In this document: positions 1 to 8,388 of the stretch, in pieces
How the letters are laid out: every line of letters starts with the position of its first letter
Numbering within the stretch: position 1 is the first letter of the stretch
Virus record (IMG/VR): IMGVR_UViG_2690315922_000011
DNA length: 8,388 bases
Source: a virus
Taxonomy: Duplodnaviria > Heunggongvirae > Uroviricota > Caudoviricetes
Direction: 5' to 3' (one strand)
Notes under the pieces: generated by a model
Seen by the model: the letters and a program-made list of their open reading frames with translations, nothing else
Told to the model about the DNA's origin: nothing
The model's database searches: none
Position numbers and translations under genes: made by a program

Positions 1-290
<290 letters not shown>

Positions 291-300
291 TCAAACATTA

Positions 301-2364
301 TTATTCCTCTGGGTAAGCTGAGCTAATCAGAGTGTCTTCTTGCATTCGATTAATGTGAGATGTAGTCCTTTCATCAATAATCTTTCCATCAAGAATTGTC
401 TGGGTAGTGACATTAATTGTCTGAGGCTTAATACTTACTGATGGTTTAATAACCTTTAAATCTTGAGTAAATGTTTCCACTCGACCTTTCAGATTATTTA
501 ATGACTCAGGTGAAAGCTGTGGAACATCTTTTGATTTACCCTGAACCATAGCCCATAAAACAGCGGCTAAAGAGTTCATGTCACCAGTTAATGCCTGGTC
601 TGTGGGTTCCACCTTTGCCCGTACAATTTTATCCATTGGATTATCGGACTTACTCATCTGACGTTCATAGAACGGTTTGACAATGGCATTAATCACATCA
701 GTTGCCATACCGACAATCATTACTTTGGTAATTGCATCAGCTACAGATAATTTCCCTTTACCACCTTCAACACTACCAGAGCGTGAATTAATTCTCCCTG
801 CTGCTGTATTCGCTACATTTCCAAGCGTGGAAATAGCCCTGATTAAGTTCCAGATACCACCTACAGCACCAATACCAGACCTCACAGCAACAATTCCAGC
901 AAGTCCCTTTAATGCACTTAACAGGCCATTTGCAATACCATCAGCCACAGTTTTTTGAGTGTCATTTAATTCTCTGTAAGCAAGGGTCACTCTGTCAAAG
1001 AATCCCTGCACTCGGTAGCTAATCGTGGTTAAATCATCAATACCGTTTGACATGCTTTTCATCAAGTCGCCAAAATGTTCACCAAGATTTTTAGATTGAC
1101 CACCCAGTGAATTAAGTAAATTAGTCAGTGACCTTGTAAAGTCTGTTAATCCTTCCTGTGAACCATCGAACATTAAGGCCAGATTATTATTCCATTCATT
1201 AGAAAGGCGACCTAACTGTGTCTGAGTAGAGTTAATAATCTTTTCCCATCCTCCCGCTTTATCAATCATCTTTCCCATTTCAGCGGATACTTTAGGGAGA
1301 ACATCTTTAGAAAGAACCTTACCGTCTTTCATAGCCTTGTCTAATTCTTCCGTAGTCATCCCAAGACTTCTGGCAAATAACTGAAAAGCACCTGCCATTC
1401 TGTCACCTAACTGACCGCGTAATTCTTCAGCCTGAATCTTTCCTTTAGATGCCATCTGCTCGAAAGCTTTTAAAATCCCGTTAATTTCATCGGTGCTTAG
1501 CCCCATTAATCTGGATGTGCCAATCACGTTGGAAAATAAGGATTCTTTCTGGCTTGTATCCATGTTACCAGCGCCAGCGGAAAACTTAGCGTAGCTTGAT
1601 AATGTTTCAATCTGGTCTACACCTGTTTTGCCAGCAAGACTCTTAACGAATTCTGTAGCTCGTTTAGCACCTTCATCACCTAAAACAAATTGTGCCGCTC
1701 GTTGTGATGCTTCTTTTTTCAAACCAATCTCCATCACCTTTCTGTAGGCTTCAAGGGCTGTTTGAAAACTATAAATGGCTGTACCTGCTTTAATTGCACT
1801 CGTGGCTAATACATCCAGACTATTTGAAGCATTTTCACTGTGATTACTTTTGCTGGTGGATGTGTGACCTCTGGACTTAATAAGAGCTTCACGTAGATTT
1901 TGATTTAACTTTGCCAGTTCACGATTAAAAGCTTCGTTTCCAAGTGTCTTAGCTTTGGAGCTCAGATTGTAATACTGCGCCTTGAACATTTTGGCTAACA
2001 GAGGGTCAATGCTATTTAGCTTGCTCATGTTCGAGCTATGCGCGGCTGTGATAGCTCTGTTGCCGCTAATTCGTGGTTGTCTAAGTGGCTTTAAAGTATC
2101 CTCAATTTCCGTTTTAATCTTAAACGCTTTAGTATTTTTAAGACGCTGCTCAATCTTGGAAATGGTTTTATCGACATTCTTTTCCATTACCTTGAGAGAG
2201 TCATTTAAAGGCGCAGGATTAACTTTAAAAGCTTTATTCAGTCGTTTCTCAATTCTTGATGCGATTTGCATCGTTTGTTTCTCGACTTTTTCCAGACCTT
2301 TTAAAACCTTCTGAGAGTTAAAACTTAACTCAATCAGAAAATCATCGACTTTAAATTGTGCCAT
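301..2364 (-). CDS. Phage tail tape-measure protein (tail length determinant)
   Basis: 687-aa ORF. K/E-rich coiled-coil-like N-terminus; segment LSTDEINGILKAFEQMASKGKIQAEELRGQLGDRMAGAFQLFARSLGMTTEEL resembles the conserved tape-measure core as I recall it; Gly/Ala-rich hydrophobic segment GLLSALKGLAGIVAVRSGIGAVGGIWNLIRAISTLG typical of these proteins. SD AGAGGTGA about 11 nt upstream of ATG 2364-2362. A downstream tail gene follows. Confidence 0.8.
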   Translation of the reverse strand: MAQFKVDDFLIELSFNSQKVLKGLEKVEKQTMQIASRIEKRLNKAFKVNPAPLNDSLKVMEKNVDKTISKIEQRLKNTKAFKIKTEIEDTLKPLRQPRISGNRAITAAHSSNMSKLNSIDPLLAKMFKAQYYNLSSKAKTLGNEAFNRELAKLNQNLREALIKSRGHTSTSKSNHSENASNSLDVLATSAIKAGTAIYSFQTALEAYRKVMEIGLKKEASQRAAQFVLGDEGAKRATEFVKSLAGKTGVDQIETLSSYAKFSAGAGNMDTSQKESLFSNVIGTSRLMGLSTDEINGILKAFEQMASKGKIQAEELRGQLGDRMAGAFQLFARSLGMTTEELDKAMKDGKVLSKDVLPKVSAEMGKMIDKAGGWEKIINSTQTQLGRLSNEWNNNLALMFDGSQEGLTDFTRSLTNLLNSLGGQSKNLGEHFGDLMKSMSNGIDDLTTISYRVQGFFDRVTLAYRELNDTQKTVADGIANGLLSALKGLAGIVAVRSGIGAVGGIWNLIRAISTLGNVANTAAGRINSRSGSVEGGKGKLSVADAITKVMIVGMATDVINAIVKPFYERQMSKSDNPMDKIVRAKVEPTDQALTGDMNSLAAVLWAMVQGKSKDVPQLSPESLNNLKGRVETFTQDLKVIKPSVSIKPQTINVTTQTILDGKIIDERTTSHINRMQEDTLISSAYPEE

Positions 2365-2430
2365 TCATAATTTTTCACCTCTTTAAGCGTGTTGTACGTG
2401 AATTCTATTTTTCAGTGTGGGTATTAACGT

Positions 2431-2479
2431 AGAAATAAAAAAGGGAGGACCAGCCAATAAATCAAGGCTAATCTCTCCC
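2431..2479 (-). terminator. Putative rho-independent terminator after the 72-aa gene
   Basis: On the minus strand: GGGAG..AGCC / GGCT..CTCCC interrupted stem (plus-strand 2443-2479, loop 2456-2465) followed by UUUUUUAUUUCU (complement of 2431-2442). Begins 7 nt after the stop codon at 2486-2488. Confidence 0.5.
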
Positions 2480-2485
2480 TGTGTA

Positions 2486-2704
2486 TCAATGTCTGACAAG
2501 ATAATGTAATTTCGTTTCACCTATGATTTGAGCATCAGAAGGAACACGGTCAATACACCACTTTGGAATCTTGCGTGTTTTTGATTTGCGTGAGGTGATA
2601 ATTTTATGATTACGCTCAACCCTCAATCTTGATTTATTGGGTTGTAGCTGGAGTCGTTCACAAACAGACCGAATAGTCTCTAAGCGTTCGTTCAAATCAA
2701 GCAT
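2486..2704 (-). CDS. Hypothetical small basic protein (72 aa), co-transcribed with the upstream 240-aa gene
   Basis: ORF MLDLNERLETIRSVCERLQLQPNKSRLRVERNHKIITSRKSKTRKIPKWCIDRVPSDAQIIGETKLHYLVRH, very R/K-rich. SD AAAGAGGTGA 4 nt before the ATG; the start lies 23 nt after the stop of the 240-aa gene; own terminator downstream. No family recognised. Confidence 0.6.
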   Translation of the reverse strand: MLDLNERLETIRSVCERLQLQPNKSRLRVERNHKIITSRKSKTRKIPKWCIDRVPSDAQIIGETKLHYLVRH

Positions 2705-2727
2705 TAATCACCTCTTTTAATTCATAA

Positions 2728-3447
2728 TTAAATAGCCTTTGCGTACTTGCTAGAAATCTTAATAAGCTGCTCAATGTCACCTTGCAAGGCAACCTTTTTC
2801 TGTGCCTCGTATTCGACTATCAAAGATTTCATTACATTAAATTCGTTTTTCAAATCCTGTTTTAACCTGTCCAACTTGTCAGCGTGACGCTTAAGCAAAT
2901 TATTTTCAGCCAGTTTAAAAATCTCTTCGTCGCTTTTGTCGCTTGTCAAAATGAATTGCCCTGAGCCTAATGTTGCAGGCTTCACATCAATTAAACGATG
3001 CCCCTCGGGAATATTTCGAATAACCTCCGAAACAAGTTCTCGTGGAGTACCATAACCACCGTTGTGATTTCCCTCGTAATAGACAAATGGGTTTGCTGCA
3101 ATTTCGTAAGCAACAACATGCTCGGATAGTTCCCCTGCATCTTTCATCTGAACTAATTTGTCGTAAGCGCTATCTAATCTAATTCGCTGCTCTTTAAGGA
3201 CTGGATAAAATCGTTTTTCAAGCTCAAGCAGCGCTTCACTTTTGCACAAATCCGGCATTTCCTGAGGAGCTTCAGGAGTCACATAGATAGTCATTTTCGG
3301 CAAAGATTTGAATTCCTTTTCGCGCTCAATTAATTTATCAAAAAATCTGCGTTGCTCTGACACTCCCGGATGCTGTGTGATAATTCCTGTGTCCCAATCA
3401 CCAAAACTATCAATTTTGCGACCATTCACAAAAATAGGATTTTCCAT
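2728..3447 (-). CDS. Hypothetical protein (240 aa) with C-terminal coiled-coil-like region; function unknown
   Basis: The ORF track extends this frame to 3564, but the ATG at 3447-3445 (MENPIFVNGRK...) has a strong SD (GAGGTG, 6-nt spacer), whereas the upstream ATG has none and its extension overlaps a terminator-like hairpin. C-terminal ~60 residues are heptad-like and K/E/L-rich (KLDRLKQDLKNEFNVMKSLIVEYEAQKKVALQGDIEQLIK). No known family recognised by eye. Confidence 0.6.
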   Translation of the reverse strand: MENPIFVNGRKIDSFGDWDTGIITQHPGVSEQRRFFDKLIEREKEFKSLPKMTIYVTPEAPQEMPDLCKSEALLELEKRFYPVLKEQRIRLDSAYDKLVQMKDAGELSEHVVAYEIAANPFVYYEGNHNGGYGTPRELVSEVIRNIPEGHRLIDVKPATLGSGQFILTSDKSDEEIFKLAENNLLKRHADKLDRLKQDLKNEFNVMKSLIVEYEAQKKVALQGDIEQLIKISSKYAKAI

Positions 3448-3548
3448 TATTTTCACCTCACATTTGTTCTGAATAAGTTTTTTTAAAGCACCCTCAGCAT
3501 GGCACGAGGTGAATTTTATTTGGGGCAGGTTTTTTGCCAAAGGTGCTT

Positions 3549-3574
3549 TAAAAAATGCCCTCATTCAAGAGGGC
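3549..3574 (-). terminator. Intrinsic-terminator-like hairpin inside the 5' leader of the 240-aa gene (possible attenuator)
   Basis: Minus strand reads GCCCUC-uugaau-GAGGGC (plus-strand 3557-3574) followed by AUUUUUUA (complement of 3549-3556). About 100 nt upstream of the start codon and downstream of the candidate promoter at 3740-3767. Confidence 0.4.
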
Positions 3575-3624
3575 GAAGTGAAGGAAAAGAAAGAATTATG
3601 AACTACTGAACAAATACTTTTGAA

Positions 3625-3652
3625 AAGGTCTTTCCGATTTAAAAAAGACCTT
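3625..3652 (-). other. Perfect 9-bp-stem hairpin in the same leader (RNA structure or weak terminator)
   Basis: AAGGTCTTT (3625-3633) and AAAGACCTT (3644-3652) are exact reverse complements around a 10-nt loop. On the minus strand it is followed by UUCAAAAGUAUUUGUU, only moderately U-rich. Confidence 0.4.
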
Positions 3653-3739
3653 GGCGAAAGCATTGCACTTCCATCTAGAATGTAGGAAATTAAGACAATT
3701 AAGTTAATTTAATTTAGGGAAATTACTCCCCATATAAAA

Positions 3740-3767
3740 ATGCTACCATAGAATTACCACCTGTCAA
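3740..3767 (-). promoter_or_regulatory. Candidate sigma70 promoter for the 240-aa/72-aa cassette
   Basis: Minus strand reads TTGACA (complement of 3762-3767), 16-bp spacer, then TGgTAGCAT (complement of 3740-3748), an extended -10-like element. This places the transcription start about 285 nt upstream of the ATG at 3447. Promoter calls by eye are tentative. Confidence 0.4.
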
Positions 3768-3852
3768 CAAAAATATAACAACCCGTGTTATTTTTCCATT
3801 GAAATTGCAAAGGAAAGTACTATTCCAAGCAACACCCACAAGATAATTAGCG

Positions 3853-4146
3853 TCATTCGTTTACTCCCAGAAATTGCAATGTAACAGCAGTCTTAATCAG
3901 CCTCTCCGGGCTAACGCTGAACTTGTTGGTTTCCGTGGTAATAAATCGCTTTAGGTTCACATCATCAACATTTAAAATCAATCGTGACTCATCAATTTCA
4001 ATGGTTTGAATAAAATCTTTAAAATTCTTGTTATCCATAACGTCACGCATCCTATCAAGATTAATTGCACTTGCAGCACCGTCCAGAGATTGCATCATTG
4101 CAGCGGTCATCTCATCAATCATAATTTGCATTGGGGAAGTGTTCAT
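3853..4146 (-). CDS. Hypothetical protein (97 aa)
   Basis: ORF MNTSPMQIMIDEMTAAMMQSLDGAASAINLDRMRDVMDNKNFKDFIQTIEIDESRLILNVDDVNLKRFITTETNKFSVSPERLIKTAVTLQFLGVNE with SD AGAGGA 8 nt before the ATG. No motif recognised. Confidence 0.55.
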   Translation of the reverse strand: MNTSPMQIMIDEMTAAMMQSLDGAASAINLDRMRDVMDNKNFKDFIQTIEIDESRLILNVDDVNLKRFITTETNKFSVSPERLIKTAVTLQFLGVNE

Positions 4147-4214
4147 TTTAAAAATCCTCTATGAAATAGTTTCTATCGAATAAAACACATCTTAAATCTG
4201 CCAAAATAGCCATT

Positions 4215-4283
4215 CTGAGGCCAGTAACCATGCGGGTTACAGAGGGAGTGAGACACCTTAGCAATAGGGTGGCTTACCTTTGA
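4215..4283. other. Two adjacent inverted repeats in the 158-bp intergenic region (candidate RNA structure or protein-binding site)
   Basis: GTAACC-atgcg-GGTTAC (4215-4231), then GAGTGAGAC (4237-4245) and GTCTCACTC (4275-4283), exact reverse complements around a 29-nt loop. The GTCTCA/TGAGAC core recurs in the repeats upstream of the recombinase. Confidence 0.4.
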
Positions 4284-4304
4284 GTCTCACTCGTTATCAC
4301 AGAC

Positions 4305-4691
4305 TTAAATAGATGCTCTAAGCTTGTAGTATTGACTACGTGATAAACCGTATTTTGCAGAAACATAACTTTGTGATTGACCTCTGGAAATGGCATCAAG
4401 AATTAACTCCCTGTCATACCGATTACCATTGGCTTTGTGTTTGTCACCAGAATTATTTCCATTAAAATTTTCAATTAATTTAACGGCGTCTTTAAGGTCA
4501 TCTTCGTAAGCATAATCAAAACCCCTGATAAACTCGAAGTCACCATTATCTTTTTGTGCTTCAATCCAGATGTCGAATCTTGAGGCTAATTGCTGGTGAG
4601 TGAACTTGGGTTTATTGGTTTGTGTTATGTCTTTCCAGGCCTGACCGTCAAATCTCACCAGATGGTCACGATGTTTATAAAAATCATACAT
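4305..4691 (-). CDS. HTH-domain protein (128 aa), putative transcriptional regulator
   Basis: C-terminal segment RELILDAISRGQSQSYVSAKYGLSRSQYYKL has a helix-turn-helix pattern like sigma-70 region 4 or resolvase-type HTH. Its ATG overlaps the stop of the upstream gene (TAATG at 4689-4693), indicating translational coupling. Confidence 0.6.
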   Translation of the reverse strand: MYDFYKHRDHLVRFDGQAWKDITQTNKPKFTHQQLASRFDIWIEAQKDNGDFEFIRGFDYAYEDDLKDAVKLIENFNGNNSGDKHKANGNRYDRELILDAISRGQSQSYVSAKYGLSRSQYYKLRASI

Positions 4692-4984
4692 TAAACCCCC
4701 AGCTTATCCGCCAGTTGATGAATCTTAATGCTCAACACCTGAATCATTGAGCAACCTGTTACCGCAGACTGTGCTTTGAGTAGTTCCAGTTGGTCTGACG
4801 TGATTCGAACGGCTTTAGAACCCTCTACAACGCCCTTGATATTATCGAAAGGGGTGAGGTCTGTTGACTCTTTTAAAACCTCTCCAATAAGCGCTGAATG
4901 CTTCACGTTTGGGTATTTGTGCTTGATGGATGCCAGTCTTTTAAACGCCTCTGGCAAAATGCGTGTAACTGTGTGTTTAGACAT
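4691..4984 (-). CDS. Putative tandem ribbon-helix-helix DNA-binding protein (97 aa), likely repressor-type regulator
   Basis: Two consecutive beta-strand/helix/turn/helix patterns: TVTRILPEAFKRLASIKHKYPNVKHSALIGEVLKE and KAVRITSDQLELLKAQSAVTGCSMIQVLSIKIHQLADKL, each resembling an Arc/CopG-type fold. SD GGAG 10 nt before the ATG. Fold assignment is by pattern only. Confidence 0.55.
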   Translation of the reverse strand: MSKHTVTRILPEAFKRLASIKHKYPNVKHSALIGEVLKESTDLTPFDNIKGVVEGSKAVRITSDQLELLKAQSAVTGCSMIQVLSIKIHQLADKLGV

Positions 4985-5246
4985 TATTTAAAGTCTCCTA
5001 AATTACTTGTGTGTTAAAATAAATTATGGGCTGATACAAACCGTTCCTTTTTTATTAATGGAATGGAATTAATGCATGATTTTTTCACAGCGATTATTGA
5101 ATCCCATCGCTTTAGCTCGTTGGGCTTTGCGGTATTTGTTCTCCTGTTATTGTTTACCCTGATTAATCGGGTTATTTCAAAGGAAACAAAGTTAATGATT
5201 CGTATTAAGTTTCTTCGCGTTGAAATAGAGATTTCAATCAATCGCT

Positions 5247-5284
5247 AATAAATCAATTAAAGCTGGTGGAGTTTATTCACCAGC
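5247..5284 (-). terminator. Putative intrinsic terminator overlapping the 3' end of the replication gene
   Basis: GCTGGTG (5262-5268) and CACCAGC (5278-5284) are exact reverse complements around a 9-nt loop that contains the stop codon. On the minus strand the stem is followed by UUUAAUUGAUUUAUU. Confidence 0.4.
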
Positions 5285-6059
5285 CGTAATCATCTTCGAA
5301 ATCCGGTAACTCATCATCGTCACCATCACATAAATCATCATCTTCATCCGGGTCCGGTAATGGTTCATCATCGTCATCGATGGTGGGGCACGGTGTATTT
5401 TTCTGGTCACTAATAACAATCACATCAGAGTTTTTATTTCTTTGTTTATTAGCCTCTTCAGAGCTTGCTTCAAGGTCATCTAAAACAGTTTGTTTAATAG
5501 TCTCTTTAATTCCAAGAGAATCACATTCATGTGAATCACAGAGCGAAGCTCCATTCTTAACAGTCCCTTCTTCAAAGTCATCTTTCCTATTGTTATTAAT
5601 AAGTTCTTTTTGTTCTTTCTTGTTATTATACGTGTCAAGAATTTTGACTGACTGAGTAAAGAATTTTGACTCAGTGGGTAAAGAATTTTGACTCAGTGGG
5701 TCATCTTTTTTGACTGCTTTAGATTCCAGCTTTGCTTTTCGTGCTTCTTTGGCTGTAGGTTCAGTTAAAACCTCAGGAACTTCATCAAGCGAAAAGACTT
5801 CAATAATACACTGGTTGCTCGCAACGTTAGTTTTCCTAATTAAACCATACGCCTCAAGTCTTTTCATACATGCAATAACTGATGTTCTTGTGATTCCTGC
5901 ATACTGACCAAGATGAGCATAAGACGGTGTATAGTATTGACCTTTATCGTGATAGTATTTTTGCTCATTCAGCATGACGGTGTAGATAATACGGTCAGCC
6001 GCTTTAATTTTATTACTCATCTGATAAATACGGTCATCAAACATGTGAAACTTTTCCAT
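5277..6059 (-). CDS. Replication initiator, lambda O-like N-terminal winged-helix domain, with poly-acidic C-terminal tail
   Basis: 260-aa ORF with SD GAGGT 9 nt before the ATG. N-terminal region DRIIYTVMLNEQKYYHDKGQYYTPSYAHLGQYAGITRTSVIACMKRLEAYGLIRK matches the phage O N-terminal pattern (..LaelTGlsrrtv..al..Le..GlI) as I recall it. Tandem iteron-like repeats and an AT-rich tract lie inside the gene, as the lambda origin does within O. C-terminus DDDDEPLPDPDEDDDLCDGDDDELPDFEDDYGW. Confidence 0.65.
   Translation of the reverse strand: MEKFHMFDDRIYQMSNKIKAADRIIYTVMLNEQKYYHDKGQYYTPSYAHLGQYAGITRTSVIACMKRLEAYGLIRKTNVASNQCIIEVFSLDEVPEVLTEPTAKEARKAKLESKAVKKDDPLSQNSLPTESKFFTQSVKILDTYNNKKEQKELINNNRKDDFEEGTVKNGASLCDSHECDSLGIKETIKQTVLDDLEASSEEANKQRNKNSDVIVISDQKNTPCPTIDDDDEPLPDPDEDDDLCDGDDDELPDFEDDYGW
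5581..5721. repeat. Putative origin of replication: four tandem 22-bp iteron-like repeats plus adjacent AT-rich tract, inside the O-like gene
   Basis: Units at 5634-5655, 5656-5677, 5678-5699 and 5700-5721; the central two are identical (GTAAAGAATTTTGACTCAGTGG), the outer two diverged, all sharing TTTTGACT. Flanked at 5581-5633 by a roughly 75% A+T tract. Confidence 0.6.
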
Positions 6060-6291
6060 TCATAAATTACCTCATACGTGAAAAGGCCAACCGGATAAAA
6101 CCGATTAGCCTGATGTGATTTAAATATCTGGGGGATTGATGGACTGATAAAGAAGCCCATGCCTGAAACAGTACGATGATTAAAACGCTGAGGTATACCC
6201 TGAATGAGAGGTTTTATATACGTCAATCATCTGACACCTCCCCAAGTGTTACCACTCCAAGACATGAACTTTTTTATCAGCCCATATAAAA

Positions 6292-6320
6292 ACTATACCA
6301 CACGTGATTATTAGTTGCAA
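6292..6320 (-). promoter_or_regulatory. Candidate sigma70 promoter directed toward the replication gene
   Basis: Minus strand reads TTGCAA (6315-6320), 17-bp spacer, then TGgTATAGT (complement of 6292-6300), an extended -10-like element. A strong SD-like GGGGAGGTG follows about 50 nt downstream (complement of about 6232-6241). Confidence 0.4.
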
Positions 6321-6393
6321 CAACTATTTCACTAAATTATTACCGTTTGATTACTTATTGTTCACCTCATAAATACCGGGATTTATTGGAAAA

Positions 6394-6540
6394 TCAGCCT
6401 AATCTTTCAGCAATTCTGTACGAGGTACTCAGGGGCATTCTGAGAGCCTCCGCAATGTACTTGATGGTTTTGCCCTCTGTTTCTGTTATCATCGGGCTTG
6501 CCTTATCAGGGCTTTGAAATGCCTCTGTAACTCCCCCCTC
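6394..6540 (-). pseudogene. Remnant of a serine-recombinase C-terminal HTH domain (truncated; N-terminal catalytic domain absent)
   Basis: Minus-strand frame reads ...FQSPDKASPMITETEGKTIKYIAEALRMPLSTSYRIAERLG-stop, with an in-frame stop upstream at 6541-6543. Compare the intact recombinase C-terminus GRPSKASPEAVQTLISQGKTRLQIQEELGISRATFYRLAK: shared KASP linker and STxYR-type HTH. Only 32 codons from the first ATG and no upstream start; it abuts hairpin repeat copy 1. Confidence 0.35.
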
Positions 6541-6541
6541 T

Positions 6542-6600
6542 TAACAGGAGAGAGGGTGATACATGAGACAAGAACCCTCCCTTCTTAAAAACCTTCTTGA
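6542..6600. repeat. Hairpin-containing direct repeat, copy 1 (~60 bp)
   Basis: Core GGAGAGAGGGTGATACATGAGACAAGAACCCTCC (6547-6580) matches copy 2 at 33 of 34 positions. Internal inverted repeat GAGGGT/ACCCTC (longer with mismatches) around a 16-nt loop that contains ATGAGAC. Flank similarity (ACC..CTTG..TCT) continues to about 6600. Confidence 0.6.
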
Positions 6601-6937
6601 CAATCTTTACAGACCTTGTTCAAGGTAATCACAATAGTTTTTCTTCCCTCGGCTTCCCGTGTTCCTCGGTTCGTTTATTGAGACCCTGAAAGACCCTGTA
6701 ACTCCTTCTTAACGGGAGAGAAAGAACATAGTGACCCCCAAGCGAAGCGCCCCTTTTAGTATGCTTTTTAATCACCATTTTAGCATTTAGTGCTTTTTAT
6801 TAAATTTAGCACTTTTTGCTAAAGACAAAACACTTGACAAATTGCTAAGATTGGACACATACCCCATCTTAACAGACTTTTAAGAGACTTTTAAACGGCC
6901 TGTTTAACCGGGTCACTATCCGGTTCTTCGTTCCCCC

Positions 6938-6951
6938 TCTATCTAGATAGA
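6938..6951. promoter_or_regulatory. 14-bp perfect palindrome TCTATCTAGATAGA (candidate operator or protein-binding site)
   Basis: The sequence equals its own reverse complement. Flanked by repeated CTGTTAAGA motifs (6953-6961, 6988-6996) and an AACCGG-n8-CCGGTT inverted repeat (6906-6925). Confidence 0.4.
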
Positions 6952-7081
6952 TACTGTTAAGATTTTTTAAGAAATCTCTTACGTCAACTGTTAAGATAAA
7001 CTTACCTTCCGTTAAAACAGTTCTGTCTAGCAATTTCATAATTGTCTGTCAAGTATCTTTGAAGGTACTATCAAGGGTCAC

Positions 7082-7145
7082 TAAGCGGGAGAGAGGGTGA
7101 TACATGAGATAAGAACCCTCCTGTTAAAAGACCACTTGGAAAGTC
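7082..7145. repeat. Hairpin-containing direct repeat, copy 2 (~60 bp)
   Basis: Core GGAGAGAGGGTGATACATGAGATAAGAACCCTCC (7088-7121); same orientation as copy 1, 541 bp downstream. Followed by the 13-bp palindrome AAGTCTGAGACTT (7140-7152). Confidence 0.6.
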
Positions 7146-7534
7146 TGAGACTTTAGTAAAATCTGTGAATACGGCTTCTCAGACGCTCTGTAACGCATTC
7201 TAGGCGATTTTACCCCCTTATTTTAAGGTGGGTGGTACATCCCTATAGACTACCCCTAAAAATGGGGTTAAAACTCGCTACAGAGCTTTCTATGAGATTA
7301 GCTTCTAATCGAATCAACTATGAGGCTTGGCAGAGTTGCATAAATTTTATACAGCACTTATTCAGCTTCTAAATTTTTTATAAAAATGACTAGCCCTTCT
7401 TCAGGTTCTCTTCCTCATTAACTCCCAAAAATATCTGTGAGTGTCTATACCCGTTTGGTAGCCCAGATTCACGATATAGCCCCTCCCTTGCAAAATCTGG
7501 AAATATCTGTCATATCCTTATGACTGTAGAATAA

Positions 7535-8083
7535 TCACTTCGCCAATCGGTAAAAGGTCGCTCTAGAGATGCCTAGCTCTTCCTGAATCTGCAACCTCGT
7601 CTTACCTTGTGAAATGAGCGTCTGAACAGCCTCTGGAGAAGCTTTTGAAGGTCGTCCCATGTGAACCCCTTCAGCTTTAGCACGCTCAATGCCAGCCTTT
7701 CTACGCTCACTGATAAGGTCTTTTTCAAGGTCAGCTAAGCCAGCCATCATAGTAAGCATTGCTTTACCGATTGCCGTAGACAAGTCGAACCCTTCACGCA
7801 ACGAAACAACCCTCACACCTTTAGCCTGTAGTGTCTCCACGTTAGAGAGTACATCAACAGTATTACGCCCTAAACGGTCAATCGCTGCCACAGCTAACGT
7901 ATCGTCACACCTTACATAGTTCATCATGTCTATAAAGCCATCTCTGTTGGTAGCCTTTGTAGTTCCTGAGACAGCTTCATCAATAAACCATTTATCGACC
8001 TTGTGAACCTTCTCTATCTGTAATTTCTGGTTGTCTATAGACTGCTCTCGTGTTGATACCCTGCAATAACCAATCACCGCCAT
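7535..8083 (-). CDS. Site-specific serine recombinase (small resolvase/DNA-invertase family)
   Basis: 182-aa ORF. N-terminal IGYCRVSTREQ with the catalytic-serine context; DRLGRN motif; C-terminal HTH GKTRLQIQEELGISRATFYRLAK. Size and layout match resolvase/Hin-Gin-type recombinases. SD-like GGGGGG 4 nt before the ATG. Confidence 0.9.
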   Translation of the reverse strand: MAVIGYCRVSTREQSIDNQKLQIEKVHKVDKWFIDEAVSGTTKATNRDGFIDMMNYVRCDDTLAVAAIDRLGRNTVDVLSNVETLQAKGVRVVSLREGFDLSTAIGKAMLTMMAGLADLEKDLISERRKAGIERAKAEGVHMGRPSKASPEAVQTLISQGKTRLQIQEELGISRATFYRLAK

Positions 8084-8097
8084 ACATCCCCCCTAAG

Positions 8098-8237
8098 TAG
8101 TCTCAAAAGTAAGTCTCATAAGTTTAGCTGTCTCATAATTCAAAAACAAGCTTATGAGACACTTAGAAGATGCATTCTACCGTTGCGTTGAAGGCGTCTC
8201 ATAAGGACTTCCTTTTGAGACTAACTTAGAAGGTGCA
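8098..8237. promoter_or_regulatory. Repeat array upstream of the recombinase gene: putative res-like recombination/operator site with three sub-sites
   Basis: GTCTCA(A/T)AAG motifs at 8100-8109, 8113-8122, 8130-8139, 8196-8205 and, inverted, at 8151-8160 and 8214-8222. Sub-site B is TGTCTCATAA-n13-TTATGAGACA (8129-8161); sub-site C is GTCTCATAAG-n8-TTTTGAGAC (8196-8222). An additional direct repeat ACTTAGAAGRTGCA lies at 8161-8174 and 8223-8236. Layout resembles Tn3-family res sites, which sit immediately upstream of the resolvase gene. Confidence 0.45.
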
Positions 8238-8388
8238 ATGTGCAAAACAGTTATGTTGCTTATTATTACCTCTTGCAACTGAAAAACCATGTGACCAGAT
8301 AACTGCATAGCGTTATATAGTCCTGTAAATAGCGGTTTATAAGAGTCGAGAGAGAGATGACTAACAACTGCATAGTTTTACTGATAAG

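What the first reader, a model, noticed from the sequence alone, without database searches (positions are those of the whole stretch)
5277..6059. O-like replication initiator with iterons inside the gene and an unusual poly-acidic C-terminal tail
The N-terminal winged-helix region and the intragenic iterons plus AT-rich tract closely parallel the lambda O/ori arrangement, but the C-terminal half does not look like the O C-terminal domain that recruits the helicase loader. Instead it ends in a roughly 30-residue Asp/Glu-rich tail. Such tails resemble SSB C-terminal tails or DNA-mimic segments and could recruit host replication proteins directly or act as an autoinhibitory domain. No helicase-loader or helicase gene follows, so this initiator may use a different mechanism to recruit the host helicase.
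Basis: partly seen in the sequence, partly recalled or inferred. Interest (0 to 1): 0.5.

Follow-up and report, generated by a model that had tools for sequence, protein, structure and literature searches.

The report
Satellite-type replication initiator with internal origin
This gene most likely encodes the replication starter protein of a small mobile island of Escherichia, with its origin of replication inside its own coding sequence, and its acidic tail resembles the tail of the DNA-binding protein of Felix O1-type phages that the island may exploit.

Summary
A 260-aa ORF lies at 5277-6059 on the minus strand. It has an N-terminal winged helix, four 22-bp iterons (5634-5721), an adjacent A-rich tract (5581-5633, GC 0.23), and a C-terminal tail with 20 Asp/Glu in its last 36 residues and no Lys/Arg.

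The protein is initiator-like, but it is not a lambda O relative (hhalign E 0.49). A profile of its family matches the N-terminal domain of Vibrio PLE satellite RepA (PDB 4RO3, E 5e-7), a RepA_N-type initiator. Four boxes centrally inside rep is also the layout of plasmid pSK41.

In close relatives the gene sits in a roughly 10.5-kb island bounded by a large serine recombinase. The island carries its own tape measure and baseplate genes related to Felix O1-type phages. Like those phages, it contains no GATC at all.

The acidic tail is predicted disordered and is a swappable module. It shares LPDPD, acidic runs and an aromatic residue near the end with the tail of the Felix O1 gp2.5-like SSB. 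I infer that it recruits a replisome by mimicking an SSB tail, probably the helper phage's T7-like replisome. No helicase or helicase loader is encoded. I found no description of this element in the literature searched.

The parts
5277..6059 (-). rep gene, 260 aa (stop codon at 5277-5279)
   Evidence: Homologues of 91-96% identity occur in E. albertii and 77-80% in E. coli chromosomes.
6070..6073 (-). GAGG ribosome-binding site, 10 nt upstream of the ATG
   Evidence: Read directly from the sequence.
5775..6038 (-). N-terminal winged-helix DNA-binding domain (aa about 8-95)
   Evidence: AF2 model: helices 20-38, 47-54 and 58-70, wing 74-88, pLDDT 70-85. Best Foldseek PDB hit is 4RO3 (PLE RepA NTD), followed by S. 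aureus RepA_N structures. The family profile hits 4RO3 at E 5.1e-7.
5634..5721 (.). Four 22-bp iterons: GTMAAGAATTTTGACTSASTGR on the + strand, each a half-palindrome GTMAA/TTGAC around an A/T tract. The fourth unit (5700-5721) is degenerate.
   Evidence: This is the best-conserved nucleotide stretch of the gene against the E. coli variant (94-100% against a mean of 86%). Homologues carry 22-aa (66-nt, three-iteron) insertions here.
5581..5633 (.). A/T-rich tract, candidate DNA-unwinding element
   Evidence: GC 0.226, lowest 1.3% of windows, 60% A on the coding strand.
5612..5624 (-). 13-mer AACAAGAAAGAAC inside the A-rich tract. It is shared with a distant relative whose iterons are different.
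   Evidence: L006 10519-10531.
5388..5774 (-). Predicted disordered linker (aa 96-224), encoded in part by the origin DNA
   Evidence: pLDDT below 50 for residues 95-230.
5280..5387 (-). Acidic C-terminal tail (aa 225-260): PTIDDDDEPLPDPDEDDDLCDGDDDELPDFEDDYGW
   Evidence: The very end (window 5243-5370, covering the last ~31 codons of the tail, the stop codon and the intergenic stretch) is replaced by unrelated sequence in E. coli variants. It shares LPDPD with the Felix O1 gp2.5-like SSB tail.
301..2364 (-). Context: island tape measure protein, 687 aa
   Evidence: Pfam TMP_3 3.5e-20. 30% identical over its full length to the Felixounavirus TMP and 55 aa shorter.
1..224 (-). Context: 5' part of a Dit-like baseplate gene (the start coordinate is approximate)
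   Evidence: 87% nucleotide identity to Felixounavirus genomes. The full-length copy in L004 is 76% aa identical to EcoM2 gp134 and carries Pfam Dit_like.
7535..8083 (-). Context: small serine recombinase (resolvase/invertase type)
   Evidence: Pfam Resolvase 5.7e-40 and HTH_7.
6475..7335 (.). Context: variable cargo slot between the recombinase and rep. Relatives carry a Dam-family methylase here.
   Evidence: This stretch is unrelated to L004 8591-9584. Dam is present in L004 and L002.

Best explanation
The ORF is the replication initiator of a small integrated island of Escherichia that looks like a phage satellite. The island's origin of replication lies inside the initiator's own coding sequence.

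Proposed mechanism:
1. The N-terminal winged helix, a relative of the RepA_N-type domain of Vibrio PLE RepA, binds the four 22-bp half-palindromic iterons. It probably binds as dimers or higher oligomers.
2. This bends and opens the adjacent A-rich tract.
3. The peptide encoded by the origin DNA is only a disordered linker.
4. In place of a folded C-terminal recruitment domain, the protein carries a disordered acidic tail that ends in aromatic residues. I propose that this tail mimics the C-terminal tail of an SSB. The first candidate is the gp2.5-like SSB of Felix O1-type phages; the alternative is host SSB.
5. The tail would then bring a replisome to the open origin. That would be the helper's T7-like DNA polymerase and gp4-like primase-helicase, or host SSB partners such as PriA, DnaG or Pol III chi. 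This would explain why the island has no helicase or loader of its own.

Shown here: the sequence anatomy, the homology of the N-terminal domain, the island context, and the links to Felix O1-type phages. Inferred: DNA binding, origin function, and the role of the tail.
For: Anatomy.

Initiator identity:
- PHROG replication-initiator families at 4e-9 to 5e-5.
- AF2 winged helix.
- Best Foldseek matches are 4RO3, then 4PQL, 5KBJ and 4PT7, which are RepA_N initiators.
- A profile of 14 family members hits 4RO3 at E 5.1e-7 over 78 positions that reach beyond the HTH core. The next hit is 100-fold weaker.
- 4RO3 is the PLE RepA N-terminal domain (PMC7145576) and matches Pfam DUF6945. Six of the 14 family members match that model, best 5.3e-7.

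Origin inside rep:
- pSK41 Rep has four Rep boxes centrally within rep, a dispensable linker encoded by the ori, and a host-specific C-terminal domain that binds DnaG (PMC5703833).
- RepA_N iterons are described as half-palindromes converging on an A tract, as they are here.
- The repeat works at the DNA level. Its 22-nt period is read in three frames. Copy number changes in steps of 66 nt. It is the best-conserved nucleotide stretch of the gene.
- A relative with 47% identity in the N-terminal domain has different 23-24-bp repeats at the same place, but the same 13-mer in the A-rich tract.

Island and helper:
- Large serine recombinase, rep, TMP and Dit-like gene, about 10.5 kb, found at different chromosomal sites.
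- TMP and Dit-like proteins are related to Felixounavirus.
- There is no GATC in the window, in the whole islands, in the EcoM2 genome (88 kb) or in 26 kb of Felix O1.
- PLEs have the same logic: a large serine recombinase, RepA that depends on the ICP1 replisome, and their own TMP and baseplate hub.
- Felix O1, like ICP1, has a T7-type polymerase and a gp4-type primase-helicase.

Tail:
- The only acidic-tailed ORF of EcoM2 folds like gp2.5-type SSBs. It ends DDGDDEDLPDPDDEEDEDFDTED, and Rep ends DDDDEPLPDPDEDDDLCDGDDDELPDFEDDYGW.
- Relatives end DDELPAYEADVAF and DMPEFDFDDVPF. E. coli SSB ends DFDDDIPF.
- The gp2.5 tail binds T7 polymerase, and the cited paper's reference list contains titles stating that its C-terminal Phe is essential.
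Against: - No experiment bears on this: binding, origin activity and helper dependence are all untested.
- The window protein on its own reaches no Pfam threshold. Its best hit is HTH_Crp_2 at 4.6e-4, it does not hit RepA_N (PF06970), and it gives no DUF6945 hit at E <= 0.1.
- Foldseek E-values for 4RO3 (3.8e-4) are only a few-fold better than those for generic MarR-type winged helices.
- The tail similarity involves low-complexity sequence. BLASTP finds nothing significant, and the shuffle test (0.25%) was designed after the motif was seen.
- Most E. coli homologues carry a different C-terminus that ends in a basic tail, so an acidic end is not a general requirement.
- In PLE the origin is intergenic and RepA has a conserved C-terminal domain.
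- The helper has not been identified. The TMP is only 30% identical to that of Felix O1.
Confidence: 0.6

Rival explanations
1. A lambda O-type initiator. It would bind intragenic iterons and recruit host DnaB through a loader.
For: The arrangement of iterons plus an AT-rich tract lies at nearly the same place in the gene as in lambda O. PHROG families labelled 'O-like' match at 7e-6 to 5e-5.
Against: There is no Pfam Phage_rep_O hit. hhalign of the family profile against lambda O gives E 0.49 and probability 0.1%. There is no O-type C-terminal domain. The island has no P- or DnaC-like gene. The best PHROG and PDB matches are non-O initiators.
Confidence: 0.05
2. The acidic tail is mainly an autoinhibitory or DNA-mimicking segment. 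It would fold back on the basic winged helix, as SSB and gp2.5 tails do on their OB folds, and limit iteron binding or handcuffing until a signal such as helper infection releases it.
For: The tails of E. coli SSB and T7 gp2.5 compete with ssDNA for their own OB domain (PMC3936761). The N-terminal domain carries net positive segments and the tail is strongly negative. The tail is disordered.
Against: No data bear on this directly. It does not explain how a replisome is recruited when no helicase or loader is encoded. The E. coli variants end in a basic tail. This rival is compatible with the best explanation rather than exclusive of it.
Confidence: 0.2
3. The protein is a transcription regulator. 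The repeats would be operators, or a site for another process such as packaging or partition, and not an origin.
For: The single-sequence Pfam hits are to generic HTH regulator families. Many MarR- and Fur-type regulators appear among the fold matches.
Against: Operators inside the regulator's own coding sequence, followed by an A-rich tract, are typical of origins. The family profile prefers an experimentally proven initiator domain. The repeats covary with the N-terminal domain while the A-rich 13-mer is kept. No other candidate replication gene is present in the island.
Confidence: 0.1
4. The gene is a decaying remnant of a prophage, and the repeats and acidic run have no function.
For: Some copies are frameshifted in the repeat region (L005). 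IS elements interrupt some islands.
Against: The ORF is intact across hundreds of protein clusters, with an almost invariant N-terminal domain and iteron peptide. Some part of the window matches 545 of 5426 complete E. coli genomes. Homologous islands lie at two different chromosomal sites. GATC is completely absent precisely within the island boundaries.
Confidence: 0.04

Closest known systems
RepA of Vibrio cholerae PLE satellites (N-terminal domain PDB 4RO3; Pfam DUF6945; assigned to the RepA_N family by Barth et al. 2020)
   Same: The N-terminal winged helix is homologous at profile level (E 5e-7) and is the best fold match. Both are iteron-binding initiators without helicase or primase activity. 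Both sit in islands integrated by a large serine recombinase that carry their own TMP and baseplate gene. The helper or candidate helper is a virulent myovirus with a T7-type replisome.
   Different: The PLE origin is intergenic, and PLE RepA has a conserved C-terminal domain. Here the origin is inside rep and the C-terminus is a disordered acidic tail. The host genus and the helper lineage differ. No other PLE genes were compared.
RepA_N plasmid initiators of Firmicutes (pSK41 Rep, pTZ2162 RepA; PF06970)
   Same: Both have three parts: a DNA-binding N-terminal domain, a linker encoded by the origin DNA with four boxes centrally in rep, and a variable C-terminal recruitment module. The iterons are half-palindromes around an A tract. 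The structures are among the top fold matches.
   Different: There is no PF06970 hit at E <= 0.1. The pSK41 C-terminal domain is a folded DnaD-like domain that binds DnaG, whereas here there is no folded C-terminal domain. The present element is chromosomal and Gram-negative.
Lambda O protein and ori-lambda
   Same: Four iterons followed by an AT-rich tract lie inside the initiator gene at about nt 350-430, after an N-terminal DNA-binding domain.
   Different: No sequence relationship is detectable. There is no O-type C-terminal domain and no P-like loader gene next to it.
Acidic C-terminal tails of SSBs: E. coli SSB (DFDDDIPF), T7 gp2.5, and the gp2.5-like protein of Felix O1 (ORF248 / EcoM2_00016)
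   Same: A disordered, strongly acidic tail with an aromatic residue at or near the end. It shares LPDPD with the Felix O1 protein. A relative ends FDFDDVPF, against DFDDDIPF in E. coli SSB.
   Different: Here the tail is attached to a double-strand origin-binding domain, not to an OB fold. The similarity is not statistically significant by BLASTP. No binding partner is known.

Membership tests
Lambda O-type initiators (Pfam Phage_rep_O, PF04492) | The N-terminal domain matches the O family. | tested here: not met
   No PF04492 hit at E <= 0.1. hhalign of family profile A2 against lambda O gives E 0.49.
Lambda O-type initiators (Pfam Phage_rep_O, PF04492) | Iterons plus an AT-rich tract inside the initiator gene. 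| tested here: met
Lambda O-type initiators (Pfam Phage_rep_O, PF04492) | A folded C-terminal domain that binds a P-type helicase loader encoded next to it. | tested here: not met
   The C-terminal 165 residues have pLDDT below 50. No loader or helicase family is found among the island ORFs.
RepA_N-type initiators including PLE RepA (PF06970; DUF6945, PF22182) | The N-terminal winged helix is homologous to RepA_N / PLE RepA. | tested here: inconclusive
   The family profile hits 4RO3 at E 5.1e-7. The best Foldseek hits are 4RO3, 4PQL, 5KBJ and 4PT7. Six of 14 family members hit DUF6945. The window protein alone reaches neither Pfam model at E <= 0.1.
RepA_N-type initiators including PLE RepA (PF06970; DUF6945, PF22182) | The origin (Rep boxes) lies centrally within rep, and the encoded peptide is a linker. 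| tested here: met
   Four iterons at codons about 113-142, in a region predicted to be disordered. The defining description comes from PMC5703833. Origin activity itself was not tested.
RepA_N-type initiators including PLE RepA (PF06970; DUF6945, PF22182) | Iterons are half-palindromes converging on an A/T tract. | tested here: met
   GTMAA-GAATT-TTGAC in each unit. The defining description comes from PMC7145576.
RepA_N-type initiators including PLE RepA (PF06970; DUF6945, PF22182) | A folded, genus-specific C-terminal domain, DnaD-like in pSK41. | tested here: not met
   No folded C-terminal domain in the AF2 model and no Pfam hit there.
PLE-type phage satellites | Integration by a large serine recombinase. 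| tested here: met
   A 506-aa recombinase (Resolvase plus Recombinase domains) lies at the island end in L004, where Rep is 95% identical. It is IS21-split in L002 and is next to the P0130 relative in L006. It lies outside the window itself.
PLE-type phage satellites | Own TMP and baseplate gene related to those of the helper. | tested here: met
   TMP 30% and Dit-like 76% aa identical to Felixounavirus proteins. The PLE feature is described in PMC12987554.
PLE-type phage satellites | Excision, replication and transduction triggered by, and dependent on, a virulent helper phage. | not testable with these tools
   This needs infection experiments.
PLE-type phage satellites | Homology of the remaining gene content to PLE genes. 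| not tested
Rep_3 iteron plasmids (RepE, Pi, pPS10 RepA; PF01051) | A tandem WH1-WH2 initiator fold. | tested here: not met
   No PF01051 hit. The model has a single winged helix.

The most novel reading that the evidence does not exclude
This is the replication module of an undescribed Escherichia counterpart of the Vibrio PLEs: a satellite of virulent Felix O1-type phages. Its initiator would have replaced a folded recruitment domain with a mimic of the helper SSB's acidic tail, so that the helper's T7-like replisome is loaded at an origin inside rep. The island would have purged all GATC sites, as its helper has.
Probability: 0.3. Interest if true: 0.8.

Novelty: new variant of a known kind. 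Interest (0 to 1): 0.62.

Why it matters
PLE-type satellites of virulent phages are so far known only from Vibrio. How their helicase-less RepA recruits a replisome is an open question stated by the authors who study them.

Here a relative of that initiator occurs in E. coli and E. albertii. It has a short, simple candidate recruitment module, a candidate helper that is a classic laboratory phage, and a well-defined intragenic origin. That makes the recruitment question directly testable in a tractable host.

Sequence matching part of the window was found in 545 of 5426 (about 10%) complete E. coli genomes. The island family could therefore affect Felix O1-type phages that are used for typing and biocontrol.

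Tried and rejected
- Lambda O membership: rejected.
- Rep_3 type: rejected.
- tblastn of Rep against phage and plasmid collections: no match. Megablast of the window against plasmids: none.
- NCBIfam: nothing for Rep.
- PADLOC: nothing for any window ORF.
- Rfam: no family in the window.
- DnaA boxes: 3 found against 1.2 expected, none in the origin, so there is no evidence for DnaA dependence.
- Promoter scan upstream of rep: not above chance.
- The search for related loci with the broad profile failed, and with a narrower profile gave one locus with a frameshifted rep.
- A profile search for distant relatives in the 5.8-billion-protein set returned only 3 proteins.
- The Klebsiella relative P0135 has no tandem repeats in or near the gene.
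- BLASTP of Rep against the phage SSB-like protein: no significant alignment.
- phmmer of the phage protein against the PDB: nothing. Only the fold comparison identified it as gp2.5-like.
- Local tblastn: no island protein other than the TMP and the Dit-like protein has a homologue in phage EcoM2.
- Literature searches for a Felix O1 or Felixounavirus satellite, or for DUF6945, found no description of this island.
Full report
**1. What is in the sequence**

The finding's coordinates delimit a real ORF, but it lies on the minus strand. It runs from an ATG at 6059, with GAGG 10 nt upstream, to a stop at 5277-5279, and encodes 260 aa.

Inside it, Tandem Repeats Finder reports a 22-nt unit in 3.0-3.5 copies with 93% matches and score 109, at 5637-5715. 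Read in register there are four units at 5634-5721. On the + strand they are GTCAAGAATTTTGACTGACTGA, GTAAAGAATTTTGACTCAGTGG (twice) and the degenerate GTCATCTTTTTTGACTGCTTTA. The GTCAAAA cores on the coding strand are exactly 22 nt apart and fall in reading frames 0, 1, 2, 0.

The 19-nt core with up to three mismatches occurs three times in the 8388-nt window, all at this site. None of 200 shuffles gave three or more. Each unit is a half-palindrome, GTMAA ... TTGAC, around GAATT/TTTT.

Directly downstream in the direction of the gene lies 5581-5633. Its GC content is 0.226 against 0.391 for the window, which puts it in the lowest 1.3% of 53-nt windows. It is 60% A on the coding strand.

The protein ends PTIDDDDEPLPDPDEDDDLCDGDDDELPDFEDDYGW.

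**2. The repeat acts at the DNA level**

- A 22-nt period cannot be a peptide repeat. Three units (66 nt) encode the 22-aa peptide TQSVKKDDPLSQNSLPTESKFF.
- Homologues differ by whole insertions of that peptide. P0012 has two copies and P0007 has three. Iteron number therefore changes in steps of three, which keeps the frame.
- Against the E. coli variant of the gene (86% nucleotide identity overall), the iteron blocks are the best-conserved nucleotides, at 94-100%.
- A relative with 47% identity in the N-terminal domain (P0130, locus L006) has an unrelated 23-24-nt repeat of 3.3 copies at the same place in its gene.
- That repeat is again followed by an A-rich tract, and the tract contains the same 13-mer, AACAAGAAAGAAC.
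- Specific iterons that change together with the DNA-binding domain, next to a conserved A-rich element, are what an origin looks like.

**3. What the protein is**

On its own the protein gives only sub-threshold HTH hits in Pfam: HTH_Crp_2 at 4.6e-4, DnaD_N at 0.049 and HTH_36 at 0.059. It gives nothing in NCBIfam. In PHROGs, residues 6-165 match families annotated as replication initiators: phrog_8102 at 4e-9, then 270 and 428. Families labelled "O-like" match more weakly, at 7e-6 to 5e-5.

AlphaFold2 gives a winged helix for residues about 10-95 at pLDDT 70-85. Everything from residue 95 to about 230 scores below 50, and most of the acidic tail does too; blocks 231-260 average 48-50.

Foldseek against the PDB puts 4RO3 first (E 3.8e-4, rmsd 1.7 Å over 78 columns). 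Next come 4PQL, 5KBJ and 4PT7, ahead of a long list of MarR- and Fur-type winged helices with only slightly worse scores.

The family is small. An exhaustive search of 1.84 billion cluster representatives found 24 clusters at E <= 0.001. A profile built from 14 of their N-terminal domains hits 4RO3 at E 5.1e-7. The alignment spans 78 positions and includes the helix before the HTH (LvYa.ML.eY..Y...YT.S). The next PDB hit is 100 times weaker.

4RO3 is the N-terminal domain of RepA of the Vibrio cholerae PLE satellite. Its authors showed that RepA binds iterons and drives PLE replication, and they assigned it to the RepA_N family (PMC7145576). The 4RO3 fragment matches Pfam DUF6945 at 4e-18. Six of the 14 family members match that model, with a best E-value of 5.3e-7.

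By contrast, hhalign of the same profile against lambda O gives E 0.49, and Pfam Phage_rep_O is not hit. The resemblance to lambda is one of layout only. Lambda's four iterons occupy nt 349-433 of O; here they occupy about nt 339-426.

The same layout is the rule in RepA_N plasmids. pSK41 Rep has an N-terminal DNA-binding domain and four Rep boxes centrally within rep. Its central linker, encoded by the origin, is dispensable, and its C-terminal domain is genus-specific and binds DnaG primase (PMC5703833).

I therefore read the protein as a RepA_N-like, PLE-RepA-like initiator with an intragenic origin. Its third module is not a folded domain.

**4. Where the gene sits**

The window has no match in the plasmid collection. 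In phages, only its first 209 nt match, at about 87% identity. The match is to the gene just downstream of the tape measure gene of Felixounavirus genomes.

Rep homologues are chromosomal. They are 91-96% identical in E. albertii (255-261 aa) and 77-80% identical in E. coli (mostly 311-320 aa). Some part of the window matches 545 of 5426 complete E. coli genomes.

In E. albertii (L004, Rep 95% identical) the element is about 10.5 kb. Its gene order is:
- a small serine recombinase;
- a Dam-family methylase;
- rep;
- five small ORFs without family hits;
- a TMP (PF20155);
- a Dit-like protein (PF21821);
- a 506-aa large serine recombinase.

In E. coli E47 a homologous island lies between wrbA and ymdF. 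The relative P0130 also lies near a large serine recombinase, beside a wrbA-like flavodoxin gene.

The island TMP aligns end to end with the Felixounavirus TMP at 30% identity and is 55 aa shorter. The Dit-like protein is 76% identical to the phage protein. No other island protein has a homologue in phage EcoM2. None of the island ORFs matches a helicase, primase or loader family, and none matches a PADLOC defence model.

**5. An unexpected second link to Felix O1-type phages**

GATC is completely absent from the window: 0 sites found, against 27 +/- 5 in shuffles. In the related loci the GATC-free stretch coincides with the island. In L004 it runs from 7263 to 18417, from the small to the large recombinase, and the flanks have normal density. 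In L002 it covers the island apart from an IS21 insertion.

The whole 88,334-bp genome of Felixounavirus EcoM2 also has no GATC, against about 311 expected. Nor do 26 kb of Felix O1 itself, against about 92 expected.

**6. Comparison with PLEs**

PLEs share the following features:
- They integrate with a large serine recombinase.
- Their RepA has no helicase or primase activity and cannot drive replication without the ICP1 phage.
- They encode their own TMP, tail assembly chaperone and baseplate hub, which they use to build chimeric tails.

ICP1 has a T7-like Pol I-type polymerase and a gp4-like helicase-primase. So does Felix O1 (PMC3185647). PLEs and PLE-like elements have been reported only from Vibrio (PMC10085698; PMC12987554). 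My literature searches found no description of a Felix O1-associated satellite or of this island.

That the island is a satellite of Felix O1-type phages is an inference from gene content and composition. It has not been shown.

**7. The acidic tail**

The tail is a module. The last 31 or so codons and the following intergenic stretch (window 5243-5370) have no counterpart in the E. coli variant. That variant carries instead an acidic run, a basic helix, LDDFDDSDDDF and a basic end, KPKMYFAGGG. The window type...DDDELPDFEDDYGW, is the minority form (7 of the clusters listed).

More distant relatives end in similar acidic-aromatic tips: DDELPAYEADVAF (P0130) and DMPEFDFDDVPF (P0141). The second is close to the E. 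coli SSB C-peptide DFDDDIPF, which mediates all known SSB-partner contacts (PMC3936761).

I scanned every ORF of phage EcoM2 for an acidic C-terminus and found exactly one. It is a 285-aa protein lying between the primase-helicase and exonuclease genes, and it corresponds to ORF248 of Felix O1. Sequence searches give it no function. Its AF2 model (pLDDT 68) matches only gp2.5-type SSBs in the top nine PDB hits: DUF2815 4KLK at 4e-5, phage Enc34 SSB at 6e-4 and T7 gp2.5 at 1.7e-3. After those there is a gap down to noise.

Its tail is conserved in the family and carries an invariant Phe. It reads DDGDDEDLPDPDDEEDEDFDTED, against DDDDEPLPDPDEDDDLCDGDDDELPDFEDDYGW in Rep. The shared LPDPD arises in 0.25% of composition-preserving shuffles. 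That test was made after the motif was seen, and BLASTP sees nothing significant.

In T7, the acidic tail of gp2.5 contacts the basic patch of the polymerase; the reference list of the same paper carries titles stating that its C-terminal Phe is essential (PMC12339929).

**8. Mechanism proposed**

1. Rep binds the four half-palindromic iterons through its winged helix.
2. It opens the A-rich tract.
3. It uses the disordered acidic, aromatic-tipped tail as an SSB-tail mimic to bring in a replisome.

The preferred target is the helper's T7-like polymerase and primase-helicase, by analogy with PLE's dependence on ICP1. The alternative is the host SSB interactome (PriA, DnaG, chi). The anatomy, the homology and the context are shown here. 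Binding, origin firing and the role of the tail are inferred.

**9. Verdict**

The protein is an initiator with an intragenic origin and an SSB-like tail, and no helicase or loader is encoded. It belongs to the PLE-RepA / RepA_N kind, not the lambda O kind, and it sits in an integrated satellite-like island.
- I rate it a new variant of a known kind. My confidence is about 0.8 that it is an initiator with its origin, and about 0.4 that the tail recruits a replisome by SSB-tail mimicry.

Noticed in passing
window 1-8388; L004 7263-18417; L002 18554-30326; L009+L010 (EcoM2 genome); L012 (Felix O1 60000-86155): GATC is completely absent from the window (0 sites against 27 +/- 5 expected). It is also absent from the whole homologous islands, whose boundaries the gap marks, and from Felixounavirus genomes (0 in 88 kb of EcoM2 and 0 in 26 kb of Felix O1). 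Some island variants nevertheless carry a Dam-family methylase. The cause is unknown; restriction or nuclease avoidance and Dam or MutH/SeqA avoidance are possibilities.
   Followed up: partly
window 1-2364 (TMP 301-2364, Dit-like gene about 1-224); L004 13677-16611: The island encodes its own tape measure protein, 30% identical to the Felix O1-type TMP and 55 aa shorter. It also encodes a Dit-like baseplate protein 76% identical to the phage protein. This parallels the chimeric-tail genes recently shown in Vibrio PLEs. The 72-aa ORF just upstream of the TMP (2486-2704) could be a chaperone, but it has no family hit.
   Followed up: partly
L009 10016-10873 (EcoM2_00016); L012 8421-9278 (Felix O1 ORF248): A conserved Felixounavirus protein annotated as hypothetical (phrog_3877, unknown function) is predicted to fold like T7 gp2.5 / Enc34-type SSBs and has a conserved acidic tail with an invariant Phe. 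It is probably the phage's missing SSB.
   Followed up: yes
window 6475-7335: A variable slot lies between the small serine recombinase and rep. The window sequence here is unrelated to the Dam-containing stretch of E. albertii L004 (8591-9584) and holds only ORFs shorter than 60 aa (6629-6778 and 6869-7039, minus strand). It may be a cargo or defence hotspot. There are no PADLOC or Rfam hits.
   Followed up: partly
L006 10933-11184; L007 1165-1416: In the relative P0130, rep is followed directly by a T5orf172/MUG113 (GIY-YIG-like) ORF. This recalls ICP1 Odn, a fusion of a RepA_N domain with a T5orf172 nuclease that cuts PLE origins.
   Followed up: no
window 5063-5248 (+ strand): A 61-aa ORF lies antisense to the operon between rep and the next gene. 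It has a strongly hydrophobic core (FAVFVLLLLFTLI) and is called as a gene in the Logan assemblies (L003 3285-3461). It may be a small membrane peptide.
   Followed up: no
window 7535-8083: A small serine recombinase of the resolvase/invertase type sits at the island end opposite the large serine recombinase. It could resolve replicon multimers or invert a segment. No inverted-repeat targets were looked for.
   Followed up: no
L008 8231-20615 (Klebsiella aerogenes): A distant Rep relative (P0135, 204 aa, without tandem repeats or an acidic tail) lies in a phage-like element with an SU10-type portal. The N-terminal domain family is therefore also used by capsid-encoding elements.
   Followed up: no
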